Shown here one piece after another: positions 662 through 19,838 of a stretch of 64,000 nucleotides of DNA (the stretch's first letter is position 1; each line of letters opens with the position of its first letter). The notes under the pieces are model-generated. The model ran no database searches and was not told the DNA's origin. It saw nothing but the letters and a program-made list of their open reading frames with translations. Location of the stretch: assembly GCA_951406725.2 (NCBI GenBank), contig OX597832.1:1860001-1924000 (forward strand). Reading direction: 5' to 3'. The position numbers and the translations under genes were made by a program. Origin of the DNA: Octopus vulgaris. Its lineage: Eukaryota.

Positions 662-1522
662 CAGATCATCCCATAAGTTCTATCCGATTTTACCTTTTTA
701 AAATTAAATGAAATTTAATAGTCTTTTAGAATGTCTAATGGAATTAAAAATTATTTTTATACATTTGTGTACATTTAAACTAATTAAATATATTTTACAG
801 AATAATAGAATTAAAATTTCTTTGATTAAAACCCTTTCTAACATGGAAGTATCCAAAGAGCATTTAAGGCACATAATGCTTTATGAGTACAAAAAAGCAA
901 ACTCTGCAGCCGAAGCAACTCGAAACATACACTCAGATTATGGGAAAGAACGCTTGAATGAAAGAACTTGCAGAAGATGATTTACAAAATTCAGAAGTGG
1001 AGATTTCAGCCTTGAAGATGAAGATCGAACAGGACGTCCAGTTGAGTTTGATGATAAGCTCACTGAGGCATTACTGTCAGGCGTTTGAACCAAGCTTTGA
1101 AGAAAAAAAGACCCGCTTTAGTGAATCGAAAAGGAGTGATGTTTCATCAGGACAATGTGCGACGCCACAATGCAAAGATCACATTACAGAAGATCGAAAA
1201 GCTTGGTTGGGAAAAAATTCCTCATCCACCTTATTCACCCGACCTTGCTCCTTCAGACTGCCATTTGTTTAGTAGTTTACAGAATCATTTGCGGAACAGA
1301 ACTTTTGCAAGCCAGGAGGAGGTCGAAACTGACATTTCAGAGTTCTTCGCTTTGAAAGCAAAAGAGTTTTACATTGATAGGATTACAAATCTTGTAGATA
1401 GATGGAAGAAAGTCATAGATAATCAAAGAAAGTACATTGATGATTAAATTTCAATTAAATATAACATATGATGACTTGTTTTCTTTATTAAAAATTCGGA
1501 CAGAACTTATGGGATGACCTGA
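661..1522 (+). mobile_element. Internally deleted mariner (DD34D-type) DNA transposon
   Basis: TIRs tcagatcatcccataagttctatccga (661) and tcggacagaacttatgggatgacctga (to 1522), TA on both sides; N-terminal HTH region MEVSKEHLRHIMLYEY..AAEATRNI; C-terminal FHQDN and HPPYSPDLAPSD; middle of the transposase deleted near 1075-1085. Confidence 0.93.
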
Positions 1523-3264: not shown

Positions 3265-4379
3265 GTGCCAGTGTCAGTATGTATAAATATATGTAAATAT
3301 ATATATAAGTATATATGCAAGTATATATATACAATTGATAAATGATCAAATGAATAAATTACTATATTCGATTTTCGATCACTTGGCGCCAGTCTATCAG
3401 TATGATTCAACCCTTACTCTTATTTAGTTATTTATTATTGTTTGTTGTTGTTGCTGTTGTTGTTGTTCTTGCTGCTCTTATTTTAATTGTTTTTCTTTTC
3501 AATCGCTTAGTTCTTCATTTCGTTCATCTTCGTCATCTTCTACTCTCAGATTTCCTGTTGTTTGGAAATTCGCCTATAATAGCAAATCATTCATGAACCA
3601 AGATAGTTACAAGATTGCACGAGAGAAATAAAACCAATAACAGTAAATAAATAGACTGAGGAAGTAACGGACAGACAGTTCGTGTAAATAACAAATGAAT
3701 AAAACACCCGAAAATTGCTGATGCAGTCCTTTTTATTGTTGTTCTTGATGATGATGAGGAGGAGGAGGAGGAGGACGAGGAGGAGGGCGGAGGACGAGGA
3801 GGACGAGGACGAAGACGAGGAGGAAATATGATGGATATGGCAGCGAGATTTAGTTTTTAGTGTTGCATTTTGTATGCGGTGAATTGGTAGAGGCGTTAGC
3901 GAGTTGCATAGAATAACTTGCGATATTTGTTTCTGCTGTATATGCTCCGTGTTCAAATCCCATGAATGTTAAACTTGCTATTCATCCTCCCCGGATCAAA
4001 ACATAAAATGCTGATCAAGTACTTGTGACAATTTCTCTCACTCTCTCCTCTTAATTTGTCTACGTTGCACTTTGCGAAGGATTATAGGGAACCACTAACA
4101 CCAACCTCTTTTTTTTCTTTTTCTGAGAAATAAAAACAGGTTCACCCAGTGGTTAGTAAAGCCTGATATTGGAACAGTTTAAGGAATGACCAAAGTGCAG
4201 TACAAAACAAAACATAAATAAAGAGGAAAAAAAATTGGGGGGCTTTTATTATTGTTCATTTTTTGTAGGCTATTTATTTAATGAACTAAATTCTGTAGCA
4301 TACATGTGTGTGTGCATGCGGTGTGTGTATTTATACACATACATATAAATATACATACATATAGATAACAAATTCAGTC

Positions 4380-5200
4380 CAAATCTCCTCCGGTGTTTCG
4401 GCCCAAAATCAAAAATTGTCGTTCAGTTTGTAGATCAGCTGTGATGGCCACTCCCCCTACTCCACGTGTTCTAGAGTCAGCAAGAAGCTCGCTCTGCTTT
4501 ATTTCCATTCTGCGTGTGGCTGTTGCCCTCAATCTCCCTGTTATTTCCAGTTGCTATAAGGTTTGTTTTTTTTTTTACAGACTGCCCGTGAAAACCCAGC
4601 AGCCACCTCAGCTGAGTGCAATAAGATCTAAAGCATTTGACCAGGTCTTGGTTTTAATGAAATTCTTCTTCGGACCTTTCTCACAACCATCTTCCCATGA
4701 GACCTTCAGTTCAATTGTAATAATCTTCATGGCCTTCTCAGGCCACATCACTAGGTCAGACTACTGGAGTATTTAGATAAATTGAGAAAAGTAAAGTTGC
4801 CTCCACAGATCGAACCTCCTCTCATAATTATGCAGTTTGAAGGACTCTCATTTTAGGCTTTTTGGAACACATTGACTTCTCCTTTCTAAGACGAACTGAA
4901 AGCTGGGGTTGACCTTGTATCAGGCAGGGCTTCTCTCTTCTCCCCCGCTCAAAGAGGTTAGCCAATACTTTAAGGACCTTGTAGCGGTGCTATCTATATC
5001 TTCCATGGCTAAATTTTATAGCTCTTTGCCTTCATCATTTCTCCTTCTAGGATCTAGCCTCATCCTGTATCATATATCTCTTTTGTTTTGCCTCAGATTT
5101 AATACCATGATCTTGCGAACGAGGTTGCTAGCTGCACTAAACCATTCCAATCTTGCCTGAAGATCATGCCTTTTCAGAGCCCCCGACCTTCCTTGATTGC
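4380..5200 (-). mobile_element. Decayed 3' part of a HERO-like (RLE) non-LTR retrotransposon
   Basis: Minus-strand translation gives HGRYR*HRYKVLKVLA (RH-D/N motif), SDLVMWPEKAMKIITIELKVSWEDGCE (PD..ELTVPWE motif) and KAERASC*L; many stops. Confidence 0.65.
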
Positions 5201-5360
5201 CATCTAGTCTTTCTAGGAGTCAGCAGTCTTCCAGGGGATTTGCTATTAGATACATCTACCTGAGATTCTATCACGCCCAGTCATATACTTATGACTGTAA
5301 CTTTTGACCAGGAAAAGAAGTTGTGTCAGGTGGTGTTGAACTTTCATCCAGACAGACAGA

Positions 5361-5740
5361 CTGTTGTTTGGAAATTCGCCTATAATAGCAAATCATTCAT
5401 GAACCAATCATGTTTGCACTCCTCACACAAAGACGTATGAGATGGCTTGGGCATGTTAGCCGTATGGAAGATGGCAGAATCCTCAAGGACATACTCAACG
5501 GAGAGCTTGCTAGGGGCACTAGGTCTTACGATACAAGGATGTTTGCAAAAGGGGCATGAATGCCTGCAACATCAATATTACTAATTGGGAAGCAGTTGCC
5601 AGCAACCGTGGAGATTGGCGACGTACCGTAAAAGATGGAACACAACGGAGTGACATAGAGAGAGAGGAGAAATGGAAAGACAAGATTGCACGAGAGAAAT
5701 AAAACCAATAACAGTAAATAAATAGACTGAGGAAGTAACG

Positions 5741-5749
<9 letters not shown>
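5361..5749 (+). repeat. Chimeric duplication: copy of 3555-3601 + copy of RTE 9510-9790 + copy of 3609-3678
   Basis: Near-identical matches to both donors read by eye; CCAA and ACAAG shared at the switches. Confidence 0.93.
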
Positions 5750-5960
<211 letters not shown>

Positions 5961-6278
5961 GTCGAATGGAAGGATATTATTAGCCATATATTCTGTTCAA
6001 AACATACAACTAGTTTCGCCATATTCTGGATCTTCAAAAAATTTGAAGTAAAATCATTGTTCCACTGGCACATATTGATTCTCAAGTGAATGGACACAAT
6101 CATTGCATTGGTATGTCAGCATTTTTAAACGCCGCTGCGTGCAACTCGATAGCATGCCATGCATTCCTGTGCATTTTGGTCACCTCACTTTGCATAATAG
6201 TTTTACCCTTTCAAATGCAGATCGATCTCAGTTTTTCTAACGAGCTGAGTTGTAACAACTTAGTTTATTTTGTACATA

Positions 6279-6500
6279 TCTATATATATATAAAACTGAG
6301 AATGTGTGTCTGTCTGTCTGTCTGTCTGTCTGCGTGTTTCCCTGAAACTTGAGAACTACACAACCAATTTCATTCAAATTTTACACATGCCTTACTTAGG
6401 GTCCATGTAGTGTCATGGGCAAAAATGTTTAACTTCTTGTCTAGGGCGAGCCCACAGCAATATCATATCTTCTCCACTATTTTAGTATTACGTGTTAAAA
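6279..6500 (+). mobile_element. Probable non-autonomous Helitron 5' end
   Basis: A|TCtatatatatataaaactgagaatgtgtg(tctg)n..gagaactacacaaccaatttcattcaaatttt, the layout of microsatellite-bearing Helitron 5' termini. Confidence 0.55.
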
Positions 6501-6733
6501 CGTATGTATATGGATGTGTGTATATATATATACATGTATATATATAGCTGTATATGTATACATGTATATGTATAGCTGTATATGTATAGATGTATTTCTA
6601 TAGATATACATGTAGTGTATACATGTATGTCTAGTTGTATATATATACAGATGTACATGTAATAAGTACACATATATATACACATATATACATGCATACA
6701 TATATACACCCATACACACACACACATATACAT

Positions 6734-7060
6734 AGGTACAGGTGTGGCTGTGTGGTAACAAACTTGGTTCCAAAACACATGGTCCTCAGTTCAGTCCCAC
6801 TGTGTGGTAACTTGGCATGTGTCTTCTGCTATAGCCTCAGACTAACTAAAGCCTTGTCAGTGGATTTTGTAGACAGAAACTGAAAGAAATCAATTGTATG
6901 TATATGTATGTATATATGTAAGTCTATGTGTGTGCCTTTGTGTTTCTCCCTCATCAATGCTTCACAACTGGTGTTCGTTTATTTACATCCCCATAACTTA
7001 CTGGTTTCACAAGAAGAAACTGATAGAATAAGTACCAGGCTTATCAAAATATAAAAAAGC
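6734..7060 (+). mobile_element. tRNA-derived SINE, family A (diverged)
   Basis: A-box-like gtggctgtgtggt, B-box-like agttcagtccc; homologous to copies at 13169, 21834 and 32605. Confidence 0.85.
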
Positions 7061-7116
7061 ACTACGCAGTGTCTCATATTTTTGTTTGCCCACTCAGTTG
7101 TATCTATCAATTTATC

Positions 7117-7119
<3 letters not shown>

Positions 7120-7208
<89 letters not shown>
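7120..7208. repeat. (GT)n microsatellite
   Basis: Read directly. Confidence 0.97.
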
Positions 7209-7211
<3 letters not shown>

Positions 7212-7301
7212 ATACATACATATATACATATGGATTTCGTAGACAGGAACTGAAACAAATCAATCGTATATATATGTATGTATATATGTAAGTGTATGTG
7301 T

Positions 7302-9998
7302 TTTGGTATTGACAACATGAATGACAATGGTCAGAGACTACTTGAATACCATAACCTGTGCATCACTAATACATTCTTCGCCAACAAGAAATCACAAAAG
7401 GCATCTTAGAGACATCCAAGATCTCACCACAGGCATCAGCTGGATCTCATCATTACACGAAGATCCTTTCTGAATTCTGTTCAATTGACCCGTAGTTACC
7501 ATAGCGCGGATTGTGACAGAGATCATTCACTAATAAGAAGCAGGGTGAGGATTCTGCCTAAAAATGTCCATCACTCCAAGAAAATGGGACAACCACGCAT
7601 TAACACTGCCAGAACCTCGGACCCTACACTGCGACAATGTTTTGCTGTTTCTATCAAAATGGCCCTCAATGGCTGCCCAACCTCCTCTGATGAAAGTAGG
7701 TGGAATTATATCAGGGAAGCTTTGTATACCACATCAATAAATAATTTCGGCATGAGAGAAAGGCAAAACCCAGATTGGTTCAATGCTGGGCTCTCAGAGC
7801 TGGAAACAGTTATCGAAGCAAAGCGTGCAGCTCTGATGCAATACTAGAGGGATTCTTCTACAAAGTCACTCGAACAACTCAGAAAGGCAAGAAACAAAAC
7901 CCAACTGACTGCCAGATGCTGTGCAAATAGGTATTGGCAGGAAATTTGTCAGAGTATCCAGTCAGCTGCTGACAGTGGCGACACCCGTGGGATGTATGCC
8001 GGTTTGAAGAAGGCCCTCGGTCCATCCGCAACCAAGTAAGCCCCTCTGAAATCAACTAATGGAGATCTCATCAGGGACCAAAACAAGCAAATGGATAGAT
8101 GGGTGGAGTACTACCAGGATCTCTACTCAGGGGAGACCAAGGTAGCAGAGGCTGCAATCGAGGGTGTCAAGATATTGCCAGTCATGTGCGAACTTGACAG
8201 TTTGCCATCTATAGCAGAGCTCACCAAGGCTATTGACTCCCTAGCAAGTAACAAGGCTCCGGGAAAAGACGGCATCCCCTTAGAGATCATCAAAACCGGC
8301 AAAAACACCATCCTGCTTCGGCACCTTCATGAGCTTCTGTGTCAGTGTTGGGAAGAGGCTACAGTCCCTCAGGATGTGCCGGATGCTAACATCATTACGC
8401 TTTACAAAAACAAAGGTGACCGTGGTGATTGTAACTATTACCGTGGAATATCTCTTCTAAACACTGTTGGAAAGGCCTTTGCTCGCATTATCCTGTCCAG
8501 GCTACAACTGCTTGCTTCTCAAATTTATCCAGAATCAAAGTGTGGCTTTAGAAGAAGGAGATCAGCTATTGACATGATATTCTCCATACGCCAACTTCAG
8601 GAGAAGTCCAGAGAGCAGAAAATGCCATTATATATGGCCTTCATTGATCTGACAAAGGCCTTTGACTTGGTAAGTAGAAAAGGCCCCTTCATCCTGCTCC
8701 AAAAAATCGGATGTCCACCAAGGCTGCTGAGGATCATCAAATATTTCCATGATGATATACAAGGCACCATACAGCACAATGGGTCAACATCAGCCGCCTT
8801 CCAAATAAAAAATGGGGTAAAGCAACGTTGTGTCCATGCTCCTACATTATTTGGCATCTTCTTCTCGCTGCTGCTGTCACATGCCTTTGAGACATCAGAT
8901 GATAGAGTGTTTCTGCACAGTTGAAGTGATGGGAAACTGTTCAATCTCTCGCGTCTGCGTGCCAATACCAAAGTCAGAAGCATCCTGATCAAGGAGATGC
9001 TATTTGCTGATGATGCCACTCTGGTATCACATACAGAAGAAGCCCTACAAAGGCTCATCAACTGTTTTGAGCAAGCATTTATCGACTTTGGCATAGTTAT
9101 CAGCCTCAAGAAGACCAACATTATAGGTCAGGCTACATCGGACATCCCAAATATACATATTGGAGACCACAGACTACAGGAGGTGGAGAAGTTTACCTAT
9201 CTTGGCTCTACCGTCACCTACAACCTATCCCTTGATGAGCTCAATATACGCATTGGCAAGGCAACTGCTGTGATGGCCCAACTCTCCAAACGTGCATGGG
9301 ACAACAATAAGCTGACCAAGACCACAAAAATGAAGATTTACCAGGCATGTGTACTTAGCACTCTACTGTATGGAAGTGAGACTTGGACGCCATACACACG
9401 CCAAGAGCGTCGCCTAAATATCTTTCACCTGCGCTGCCTCCGGAAAATCCTTCGCATCAAATGGCAGAATCATGTCCCCAACAAACATGTCCTCAAGCAA
9501 GCAGGAATACCAAGCATGTTTGCACTCCTCACACAAAGACGTATGAGATGGCTTGGGCATGTTAGCCGTATGGAAGATGGCATAATCCTCAAGGACATAC
9601 TCAACGGAGAGCTTGCTAGGGGCACTAGGTCTTACGATACAAGGATGTTTGCAAAAGGGACATGAATGCCTGCAACATCAATATTACTAACTGGGAAGCA
9701 GTTGCCAGCAACCGTGGAGATTGGCGACGTACCGTAAAAGATGGAACACAACGGAGTGACATAGAGAGAGAGGAGAAATGGAAAGACAAGAAAAGAGGTC
9801 AACAAGAAAGTATGACATTACAACCAGCCAGGCAAAGTCTTGCTACATTTGCGGCACCTGCCAGAGGGAGTGTTTGTCCAGGATAGGACTACACAGCCAC
9901 AGCAGGAAATGTATTAGGACATAAAATGTGAAAGCCTGACTAGATTATTTTATGCGCAACTCCATTGTCTCCCGAGACAAAAAGGATGCCAACAACAA
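7302..9998 (+). mobile_element. 5'-truncated, decayed RTE-clade LINE (APE C-terminus, RT, C-terminal zinc finger, (CAA)n tail)
   Basis: NDNGQRLLE..ITNTFF..DLII..DHSLI (APE); YRGISLL, FIDLTKAFD, GVKQRCVHAPTLF, LFADD, FTYLGS, LLYGSETW (RT); CGTCQREC..H; tail ccaacaacaaca; stops and frameshifts. Confidence 0.95.
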
Positions 9999-10005
9999 CA
10001 TATAC

Positions 10006-10280
10006 GGATTTCGTAGACAGAACTGAAACAAATCAATCATATATATATGTATGTATATATGGAAGTCTATGTGTGTGTCTTTGTGTTTCTCCCTCATCAC
10101 TGCTTCACAACTGCTGTTCATTTATTTACATCCACATAACTTACTGGTTTCACAAGAACAAACTAATAGAATAAACCAGACTTATCAACATAAAAAAAGC
10201 ACTAGGTTGTGTCTCATATTTTTGCTTGCCCACTCAGTTGAATCTATCAATTTATCTTTGTATGTGTGTGTGTGTATATA
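10006..10280 (+). repeat. Direct duplicate of 6862-7125 (SINE A 3' half plus flank)
   Basis: Colinear similarity including the non-SINE flank gtgtctcatattt..tatcaatttatctttg. Confidence 0.9.
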
Positions 10281-11424
10281 TAGCCTTAACTCCCAAATTT
10301 TAGTCATTTCTTTTATGATCCAAAACTAGGTCAAAAGTACTGAATGGATCTTTATGAAAATTTGAAATTATATTCTATGCATAAGGGCCATATTTCCCCC
10401 ATGACAATTCATATATTTTTGCTGTTGATGAAATTTTAGCCATAGATATTAGGCACAAATGAAGTAATATTTATAAAATTTCATCTTCTTACAAGTTAGA
10501 AAGACCCTGCCATGGGGACTTAACACCCACAATTTTGTCATTTTATTTAAGCAAAAGCGAATACATTTGTGCTCTTGGAAGCTGTAGGGTCACCCGAGCA
10601 TAAAAGTTGAGCATTATTTCTAATTCAATGGCACAACAGTGTAACAGTTTGCTTTGACATACACTTACATTGTGATTTCTGCAATGTGCTGCATAAATTG
10701 TCAAGTAAATCAGAGGCATCTTTGCCTCTACTGATTCAGTTGCAAAGTGTTGAGTAAAGTTATTTGATTGCAGACCTCCTTTCAGTCTTTTTATTATCAC
10801 TGGGTCACACATAGTCCCCAGATGGTAACATTGATTTCAAGGTCTTCCCACATGAGTGACTGGTTATTCAAAGACATTTATAGATTGTAAATTTATTCTG
10901 TCCAGTTACGTATCAGTATAGTGGTCATTTGCAAACTCCAGATGTGACACTTTAATTTCTCCTTAGCCCTCGCGTCACATAGTTGTTAATGTTGATTTCA
11001 GTTGGGTCACGCCCTTCCAACTGCTATAGATTCGTAATGCATCTTACGGCTGTGAGGAATCCTACATTGGGAGTGGTACCGACTAGGGTAGGGTAACTGA
11101 CTGCTTATTGTGATCATTCGTCTTTTGGTTTCCTGTAGCTTTGCTCTCTTTTACAAACCCAGTGAACATATATTTCCTATTTCAAAGAAATTCAATCAAT
11201 TTAAAAAGATTCTCAATTTAAAAAGCTTAAGTTAAAAAGATTCTCAAAATTCAACTTCTCTGGTTGACTTTAAGATGCCCACCTCCAACAGGGGTCTTAA
11301 CTCTCACATTTTAGAGCTCCATGACCTTCATTTTTCAGGAGCAAAATCTTTTTAACAGGTTCAATAAGACTGGAATTTTGGAATATGCGCATAAAAATCA
11401 GTAGTATGGGATACATGTGGCACG

Positions 11425-11590
11425 ATTATAATTTGGTGGGGCGGGGGAGTGTAAAGAGAGAAATTACCCTCATCTGCAATTTTGATGAAATTCGAAACAT
11501 AGATATTCCAGTTCATTACAGAAAATATAACAGAAAAGTCTAATTCTTCCATTGAATGTAACCGGGCAACGCCGGGTATCTCGGTATCTA
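11425..11590 (+). mobile_element. Probable Helitron 3' end with subterminal hairpin
   Basis: accgggcaacgccggg GC hairpin at about 11561-11576, about 12 nt before a degraded CTA(G) end running into (TA)n. Confidence 0.55.
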
Positions 11591-11612
11591 TATATATATA
11601 TATATATATATA

Positions 11613-18213: not shown

Positions 18214-19047
18214 TGTGTGTGTGTGTAGCAAATAGTGAGGGATTGTAAATCCGGGCATAATACTTTATAAGCTCTCCAGGCAAACTATATTACTTAGATT
18301 AGTGGAGAACTCCAAGTAATCTTTTGGTAGGGTCCCAAGTTACGGTTCCTCACAATTCTATATTGTAAATCGGTGGATGGACTTCAGATAAACTAGGCTT
18401 TTTTTTACAGAGAGTGATATTTAAGAAACAAGTTTAAAATAATGGTCATTACATTTAATTACTATATTAGAACAAATTTGGCTCACAACTGTCTCCAGTA
18501 GTCATTCACCCTACTTGTAACATCTCTAAATATATCGATATTTATACCCTGATAATAAGACCTTTCATTACGTTTATTATATGAATAAAACAAGAATCCT
18601 TCGCACTCTAACATTATTCCCCCACTATGCTAGATTAAAACTGAAAATTACTGTCTTAGACTGAATCACGTCCATGAAAAACCCTTATCAAATTTCATCA
18701 CATTGGCGGGAGAATGTTTGACCTATATACAAAGCTAATATGGCAATGGGTGCTGACCCATGTTTGTGACTATCCTTCTCTCAAATTTTGCAACACAATA
18801 CCCGCTACTACTACTACCTTACTTGCTCCCATCCCCTTGTAACCTGTCTTTCTCTGTTCTCTATTCTATTCGAACATCCCAATCTTCCCTCACTTTTCCC
18901 ACACAATAGCAGTCGATAACGATACGACGCTATGTAAAGCTTCACTGAAATATATACTGGTGAAGATGTATGCGAGCAGCGAACATAAAAACATTTTCGT
19001 CTTACCTCTAGGTAGAACATCGTAAAAATGGACAACCCAGAATTGAT

Positions 19048-19123
19048 AAGCTAGGACCCGAGTTTCGCACTTTCGAAAAAACGGTTGTTATCATAAATTT
19101 GATTAGTCTTCATCAGCTAGATT
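19048..19123 (-). ncRNA. Type I hammerhead motif with long loop 2
   Basis: Reverse complement AATCTAG-CTGATGA-AGAC-(35 nt)-GTGC-GAAA-CTCGGG-TC-CTAGCTT; core intact, stem II damaged. Confidence 0.72.
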
Positions 19124-19507
19124 CACCTGTGACGAAAATTGTAAAATATCTCTACATCTTCCTAGTATATTCGGATAAACGCTTAGCCGTTAACAACCGA
19201 TATTAGTGAAGTTTTACATGGCGTTATATCGTTATCGACCGCTATTTCCAGCAAACATTAGTGCCTTGTCGTAATACTATTTCTTATTTATAATTCTACC
19301 TGTACGGTGCTCTATTTGGCTGGAAAGGGATACTATCGTATTGCAATATTTAAATTTTTTAAGATAAGTGTTAACCACTCGGATTATCTTGAATGGGACA
19401 CAATTTTTATAGAAAACTTTTTCACTGATCTCGGTTGTTAACGGCTAAGCGTTCGGCCGAATATACTGGCAAGATGTAGAGATATTTTACAATTTTCGTC
19501 ACAGGTG

Positions 19508-19583
19508 AATCTAGCTGGTGAGGACGAATCAAATTTACGATAACAACCGTATTTTCGAAAGTCCAAAACTCGGGTACTAGATT
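19508..19583 (+). ncRNA. Type I hammerhead motif with long loop 2 (core mutated)
   Basis: AATCTAG-CTGGTGA-GGAC-(35 nt)-GTCC-AAAA-CTCGGG-TA-CTAGATT; stems I and II perfect, two core substitutions. Confidence 0.68.
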
Positions 19584-19838
19584 ATCAATTCTGGGTTGTC
19601 TATTTTTACGATGTTCTGCCTGGAGATAAAATGAAAATGTTTTTATGTTCGCTGCTCACATACATCTTCGCCGGTATATATTTCAGTGAAGCTTAACATA
19701 GTGACGTATCGTTATCGACTGCTATTTCCAGCAAACATCGGTGTTTTGTCGTACCACTAATTCTTATTTATAATTCTGCTTGTACGGTGCTTTATTTGGC
19801 TGAAAAGTGGTACTATTGTATTGCAATGATATTTAAAA

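What the first reader, a model, noticed from the sequence alone, without database searches (positions are those of the whole stretch)
5350..5750. Three-part templated chimera joined by microhomology from loci 1.8 kb upstream and 4.1 kb downstream
Seen: 5361-5407 copies 3555-3601, switches at shared CCAA into about 277 bp of the RTE at 9510-9790, switches back at shared ACAAG to 3609-3678, and exits through GACAGACAG into the (GACA)n tract it sits in. Seven donor bases (3602-3608) are skipped. The RTE piece carries the same frameshifting lesion (gcactagg-tcttacgatac) as the local copy and differs from it at about 4 sites. There is no tail or TSD. Inference: serial template switching (FoSTeS/MMBIR or polymerase-theta-like repair) at a microsatellite break using nearby DNA, not retrotransposition.
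Basis: partly seen in the sequence, partly recalled or inferred. Interest (0 to 1): 0.72.

Follow-up and report, generated by a model that had tools for sequence, protein, structure and literature searches.

The report
Three-piece repair patch in a microsatellite
A 389-base stretch inside a short GACA repeat is built from three copied pieces of nearby DNA (two from one spot 1.8 kb away, one from a dead jumping gene 4 kb away); it is likely the scar of one repair accident in which a polymerase hopped between templates, a known and ordinary kind of mutation.

Summary
Observation confirmed. 5361-5407 and 5680-5749 equal 3555-3601 and 3609-3678 (117/117). 5403-5685 matches the local dead RTE at 9509-9791 (279/283). 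Junction overlaps are 1, 5 (6 if 5408 mutated), 6 and 9 nt. The flanking donor is single-copy. The local RTE is the donor: it shares a 16-nt deletion (0 of 28 other copies) and five non-majority bases. The lesion is not private: a third carrier lies 1.77 Mb away, but it cannot be the donor. Public contigs carry the left junction in 2 of 4 runs, then follow the intact donor without the RTE piece. This is probably graph collapse, but an older RTE-less allele (two-step history) is not excluded. The RTE junctions have no independent support. Best reading: one serial template-switching repair event, MMBIR/FoSTeS-like (0.62). The kind is known (complex MMB-TI, local n-jumps). In 1.08 Mb of this genome there are 22 local-copy clusters, including another patchwork, and the scan noted similar scars elsewhere in this genome. 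Low interest.

The parts
5349..5360 (+). left stub of the CAGA/GACA tract (3 units); junction 1 follows with 1 nt of overlap
   Evidence: present on public contigs of X19 and X4
5361..5407 (+). piece 1, exact copy of 3555-3601
   Evidence: 47/47; genome search
5403..5685 (+). piece 2, copy of the local RTE 9509-9791 including the 16-nt deletion; overlaps ACCAA(G) and ACAAGA at its ends
   Evidence: 279/283
5680..5749 (+). piece 3, exact copy of 3609-3678, ending in a 9-nt overlap with the tract
   Evidence: 70/70
5741..5901 (+). host microsatellite: (GACA)n running into (AGAT)n
3555..3678 (+). donor A, single-copy sequence; holds both internal microhomologies close together, and GACAGACAG at its end
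7302..9999 (+). 5'-truncated, stop-interrupted RTE-type LINE; 9509-9791 is donor B
6281..11612 (+). 5.3-kb unit containing the RTE, with a paralog at G000:C19:3637919-3642722 that also carries the 16-nt lesion

Best explanation
The 389-nt insert is a patchwork of three same-strand copies of nearby DNA joined at 1-9-nt overlaps, likely made in one germline repair event in which a broken or stalled end in the GACA tract primed on nearby DNA and switched template three times (MMBIR/FoSTeS-like). The likelier direction (inferred) is leftward. The right-hand end anneals by its 9-nt GACAGACAG match to 3670-3678 and copies to 3609. It jumps by ACAAGA to 9786-9791 and copies 277 nt of the dead RTE. 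It jumps back by ACCAAG to 3597-3602, copies to 3555, and joins the left stub with 1 nt. The short skip in donor A follows from where the two matching words lie in it. Shown: the pieces, donors and overlaps. Inferred: a single event, the direction, and a break in the tract. It has no function that I can see.
For: Donor A is single-copy among the matches found (3 matches, all in this window). The local RTE is the best non-self hit (99% against 92% or less) among 40 scored of 1687 candidates. Chimera and local RTE share a 16-nt deletion absent in 28 of 28 other aligned copies, and five non-majority bases, two of them in 0 of 28. The third lesion carrier lacks 9743-9791 and three of these bases. 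Overlaps of 5-6 nt at both internal joins are unlikely by chance (p about 0.006 and 0.002). The pieces are compatible with one age: 0/117 against 4/283, Fisher p=0.33. One substitution sits exactly at a junction (5408), as in the 'microhomeology' of PMC8421209 (section 10). Junction 1 is on public contigs of X19 (788 nt, 0 differences) and X4. A second, independent event landing inside the same 124 nt is a priori rare at about 20 local copies per Mb (inference).
Against: In one search the one listed joint, seen in X3, X4 and X19 (3 of 4 runs), goes 5407 to 5680 through the donor's 7 bases, i.e. without the RTE piece. In X19 and X4 this path lies on a contig that also holds junction 1. No listed row shows junction 2, 3 or 4 (32 of 2410 pieces and part of the loose ends were shown). 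Junction 1 has only 1 nt of overlap. The empty site was not seen. The sequence alone cannot tell DNA from RNA templates.
Confidence: 0.62

Rival explanations
1. Two nested events: 3555-3678 was first copied whole into the tract; a later break inside that copy was patched with 277 nt of the RTE, both ends pairing to it by ACCAAG and ACAAGA.
For: Contigs of X19 and X4 read junction 1 followed by the intact donor sequence, which is the predicted intermediate allele.
Against: The same contigs stop matching at 5749 (side 70; last-bin depth 28/29 of the contig's depth). The X19 contig runs 92 letters further, which fits the donor's right flank up to its GAG repeat at 3770 and not the tract, where 31-mers become repeated by 5784. 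So these contigs have lost links to high-copy repeats, and links to the RTE would be lost the same way (inference about contig simplification, recalled). Piece A is not older than the RTE piece (0/117 against 4/283).
Confidence: 0.2
2. RNA-templated patch: a reverse transcriptase primed at the tract by GACAGACAG on a + strand transcript spanning 3.5-9.8 kb and jumped twice within it.
For: All three pieces are on the RTE's sense strand; RNA-derived patches without tail or TSD are described (class 2 TSIP, PMC5110952, abstract and section titles).
Against: No splice signature (no GT after 3601 or 9791) and no tail. No transcript evidence was obtained. Two internal jumps are needed.
Confidence: 0.07
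3. Junction 1 is the joint of a 1.8-kb tandem duplication (3555-5360) whose second copy later collapsed by a deletion between GACAGACAG and the tract; the RTE patch came separately.
For: The X19 contig path (left flank, junction 1, intact donor, probably donor right flank) is exactly such an allele.
Against: It needs three events. In X3 two contigs run over the right end of the laid stretch, which hints at a fork at 5749/5750 as in the assembly (indirect).
Confidence: 0.05
4. The RTE piece, or the whole insert, is an assembly error.
For: Junctions 2-4 have no independent support in the rows shown; one of the laid runs may be the assembled sample.
Against: Junction 1 is in two runs with different organism labels and studies. 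The RTE piece differs from its donor at 4 sites and keeps the family base at 5477 where the donor is derived; a copying artefact of this assembly would be identical to its source.
Confidence: 0.04

Closest known systems
Complex microhomology-mediated templated insertions (MMB-TI 'CM' class; PMC8421209, passages and section 10 part 1)
   Same: Insert made of three templates, microhomology or microhomeology at the joins, germline variant; 33 and 26 such complex events were reported in two human genomes.
   Different: Here all pieces are in direct orientation, the templates lie 1.8 and 4 kb away (the yeast events cited there are within 100 bp), and the host site is a microsatellite, a class which that study filtered out.
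Local n-jumps and bridges/cycles of templated insertions (PCAWG; PMC7025897, passages)
   Same: Copy-and-paste string of local templates that returns to the host chromosome, with copy gain of each piece.
   Different: Those are somatic, defined by read and copy-number data, and mix inverted and non-inverted joins; this one is 389 nt, inherited, and has no inverted join.
Polymerase theta-mediated end joining with templated inserts (PMC4032859, passages)
   Same: Iterative priming and extension; 1-nt homology at one join.
   Different: Inserts there are short and copied from DNA flanking the deletion; here the pieces are up to 277 nt and kilobases away.
Class 2 templated sequence insertion polymorphisms (PMC5110952, abstract)
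   Same: A patch without poly(A) at a presumed break.
   Different: Those come from distant regions; this one is local and tripartite.

Membership tests
Complex templated insertion (MMB-TI / local n-jump) | Insert copied from two or more identifiable templates that remain in place | tested here: met
Complex templated insertion (MMB-TI / local n-jump) | Microhomology at the junctions | tested here: met
   1, 5(6), 6 and 9 nt; chance rates
Complex templated insertion (MMB-TI / local n-jump) | All junctions phased on one molecule and arisen together | tested here: inconclusive
   Contigs show junction 1 only and then the donor path; ages compatible, p=0.33
Complex templated insertion (MMB-TI / local n-jump) | Pre-insertion (empty) allele known | tested here: inconclusive
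   No empty site in the listed rows; flanks have no paralog in the genome searches
Pol theta-mediated end joining | Short insert templated from the immediate flank of the break | tested here: not met
   Templates 1.8 and 4 kb away, 389 nt in all, against PMC4032859 passages
Pol theta-mediated end joining | Genetic dependence on POLQ | not testable with these tools
   needs mutants
LINE retrotransposition (TPRT) or chimeric retro-element family | Element 3' end or tail at the insert's end | tested here: not met
   The RTE piece ends at 9791, about 200 nt before the element's 3' end at about 9999
LINE retrotransposition (TPRT) or chimeric retro-element family | Target-site duplication | tested here: inconclusive
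   Both flanks are CAGA/GACA units
LINE retrotransposition (TPRT) or chimeric retro-element family | Dispersed copies of the chimera | tested here: not met
   Donor A sequence found only at 3 places, all in this window; lesion 20-mer at 3 places

The most novel reading that the evidence does not exclude
The patch was built in steps and the intermediate still segregates: other individuals carry the RTE-less copy at the same microsatellite. That would be a rare natural series (empty site, simple patch, re-patched patch) showing that tandem-repeat tracts in this genome break and capture local DNA repeatedly.
Probability: 0.2. Interest if true: 0.45.

Novelty: new member of a known kind. Interest (0 to 1): 0.2.

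Why it matters
As a single locus it matters little: it is a neutral-looking scar between dead elements. Its value is as a clean example, because a private deletion and diagnostic bases pin the donor among more than a thousand family copies. It also hints that kilobase-range template switching is a routine source of local duplications in this repeat-rich animal genome. Two full-text searches found no paper on this for cephalopods ('octopus' + 'templated insertion'; 'cephalopod' + 'microhomology' + 'structural variant'). A population survey of such patches could test whether multi-template inserts arise in one step.

Tried and rejected
(1) Dispersed chimeric element or SINE: rejected, donor A has no other copy among the matches found. 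(2) Another RTE copy as donor: rejected for the 28 aligned copies (the best 28 of 38 non-local scored matches, of 1687 candidates) and for the third lesion carrier. (3) Filler at the truncated end of the decayed element in 4400-5348 (minus strand): rejected on age; that element has many stops, no DNA match elsewhere and only 27-44% protein matches, while the insert is about 1% diverged. Its identity as a restriction-like-endonuclease LINE remnant rests on a recalled motif; Pfam and PDB gave nothing. (4) Back-splicing or a circular RNA: no GT at the donor ends. (5) Residual depths in table 3 (X19: 9.8 not-A at 5554, 15.3 not-C at 5582, contig depth 7.5) could mean that the RTE piece is present in X19, but X4 shows 0 at 5483 and 5554, and other family copies can carry these bases: not used. 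(6) 'Ends near tandem repeats' is confounded by masking, which itself cuts matches: not used as enrichment. (7) The C5 cluster that looked like a six-part chimera is a tandem array of a repeat. (8) No cover at 4620-5341 in X3 and X4 and beyond 5217 in X20 proves nothing.

Full report
Observation. Self-alignment gives three abutting matches: 5361-5407 = 3555-3601 (47/47), 5403-5685 = 9509-9791 (279/283, no gaps) and 5680-5749 = 3609-3678 (70/70), all on the + strand. The insert sits between a 12-nt CAGA stub (5349-5360) and a (GACA)n/(AGAT)n tract (5741-5901). Junction overlaps are 1 nt, 5 nt (ACCAA; both donors continue with G, the chimera has T at 5408), 6 nt (ACAAGA) and 9 nt (GACAGACAG). 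Random position pairs in 3400-10000 share at least 5 or 6 nt with p=0.0063 and 0.0022. The window holds no N.

Donors. A genome search with 3540-3700 found 3 matches: the donor and the two copied pieces; the tool warns that it skips very common words. The RTE piece has 1687 candidates, 40 scored; the local copy is best (99%), the others 92% or less. In an alignment with 28 of those copies, chimera and local copy alone have a 16-nt deletion (two other copies have different, partly overlapping or neighbouring deletions), and they share five non-majority bases (carried by 1, 0, 0, 1 and 4 of 28). Of their four differences, three are derived in the chimera (5408, 5554, 5585) and one in the donor (9583).

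The lesion is not private. The exact 20-mer occurs three times. The third carrier (G000:C19:3.64 Mb) is part of a paralog of window 6281-11612 (88-92% by blast; 120 substitutions in 2376 aligned RTE bases). It lacks 9743-9791 and has the family base at 9557, 9589 and 9688, so it split off earlier and is not the donor.

Independent data. Four contig sets were laid on 4620-5750. X19 has one 1228-nt contig matching 4620-5407 with no difference, and an X4 contig starts at 5349 (side 59; bin depth 31/38 of its depth). So junction 1 exists in 2 of 4 runs, from different studies and organism labels; either could be the assembled sample. Against my reading: X3, X4 and X19 then pass from 5407 to 5680 through the donor's seven bases, with no RTE piece, and no listed row shows junctions 2-4. 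The X19 and X4 contigs also fail to match at 5750, and X19's 92 extra letters fit the donor's right flank to 3770 better than the tract, where 31-mers are repeated (28 times at 5784 in the 1.08-Mb sample). I could not see those letters. I read this as two near-identical copies collapsed into one path once links into very deep repeats were dropped (recalled behaviour of short-read contigging). A real RTE-less allele or a tandem-duplication allele would look the same.

Mechanism. Shown: pieces, donors, overlaps, no tail, internal RTE fragment. Inferred: one event of serial template switching from a break or stalled fork in the tract. Leftward synthesis is likelier because it starts on the 9-nt match and ends on the 1-nt join. 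The pieces are compatible with one age (0/117 against 4/283; Fisher p=0.33), and about 1% total divergence makes the insert younger than the 4-6% spread of the nearest family copies. Some of the three chimera-side changes may be synthesis errors (inference). Confidence 0.62; nested two-step 0.2; RNA template 0.07; tandem duplication then collapse 0.05; assembly error 0.04.

Base rate. In five blocks, 1,084,000 bases in all, one containing this window, pairs of at least 40 nt and 97% identity run at 190 per 1e10 bp2 at 0.1-2 kb, 69 at 2-10 kb (inflated by one tandem duplication) and 6.6 between blocks. After dropping multi-copy sequence, 60 local pairs form 22 clusters, against 14 far pairs. 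Of the 22, one is this finding, one an 8.7-kb tandem duplication, one a repeat array on inspection, one a 99.5-100% identical multi-junction inverted patchwork between (AT)n tracts at G000:C1:50108304-50109963, and one a two-diagonal inverted cluster. The 17 single pairs were not inspected, and some may be element ends. Local copying is therefore common here, and complex patches occur at roughly one per Mb in this small sample.

Known kinds. PMC8421209 (passages; section 10 part 1 of 2) reports three-template germline insertions with microhomology, 33 and 26 complex events in two people. PMC7025897 (passages) defines local n-jumps and bridges or cycles of templated insertions. PMC4032859 (passages) describes short flank-templated inserts of pol theta. 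PMC5110952 (abstract and section list) describes class 2 patches. No supplements were read. Other papers were seen only as search listings. Searches for cephalopod cases returned 0 papers. That the animal is an octopod is my inference from genome size and repeats and is stated in unchecked notes; I did not test it. Earlier notes of this scan report similar scars elsewhere in this genome (8 of 663 fitting notes shown) and none near this place.

Verdict. A real local templated insertion of a known kind; the one-step reading is likely but unproven. Interest 0.2.

Noticed in passing
window 6281-11612; G000:C19:3637919-3642722 (L038-L039): A 5.3-kb unit between TA runs, starting with a GTCT-microsatellite head and ending in a short GC-rich hairpin (followed by CTAGT in the paralog). 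It has a paralog 1.77 Mb away that carries the same nested RTE. It looks like a non-autonomous Helitron/Helentron-type element that moved with its RTE passenger (resemblance recalled, not tested), or a segmental copy.
   Followed up: partly
window 7228-7301 and 10002-10074: The RTE is flanked by a 74-nt direct repeat (93%), also present in the paralog: possibly an unusually long target-site duplication. 6862-7135 is a further 91% copy of 10006-10275.
   Followed up: partly
window 4400-5348, minus strand: Decayed coding remnant directly left of the tract with a D-x(n)-E-x-K-like motif and 35 weak protein matches in the genome, many on contig C31; possibly a restriction-like-endonuclease LINE (recalled). 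Pfam and PDB gave no hit.
   Followed up: partly
G000:C1:50108304-50109963 (L078): A second, very young (99.5-100%) multi-junction patchwork with inverted pieces, bounded by (AT)n tracts.
   Followed up: partly
G000:C12:20175704-20192867: Near-identical tandem duplication with a period of about 8.7 kb; recent, or an uncollapsed haplotype.
   Followed up: no
window 3400-3900: Donor A lies in single-copy sequence next to a GAT/GAG-rich tract, with a polypyrimidine-CAG at about 3549 on + and a GT donor-like site near 3420 on minus; it could be part of an untranslated exon. No RNA data were obtained.
   Followed up: no
window 958-1447: Mariner/DDE transposase fragment (DDE_3, E 7.7e-06, below the curated cut-off).
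   Followed up: no
window 18905-19210 and 19421-19726: 306-nt inverted repeat pair at 91%, MITE-like or a fold-back.
   Followed up: no
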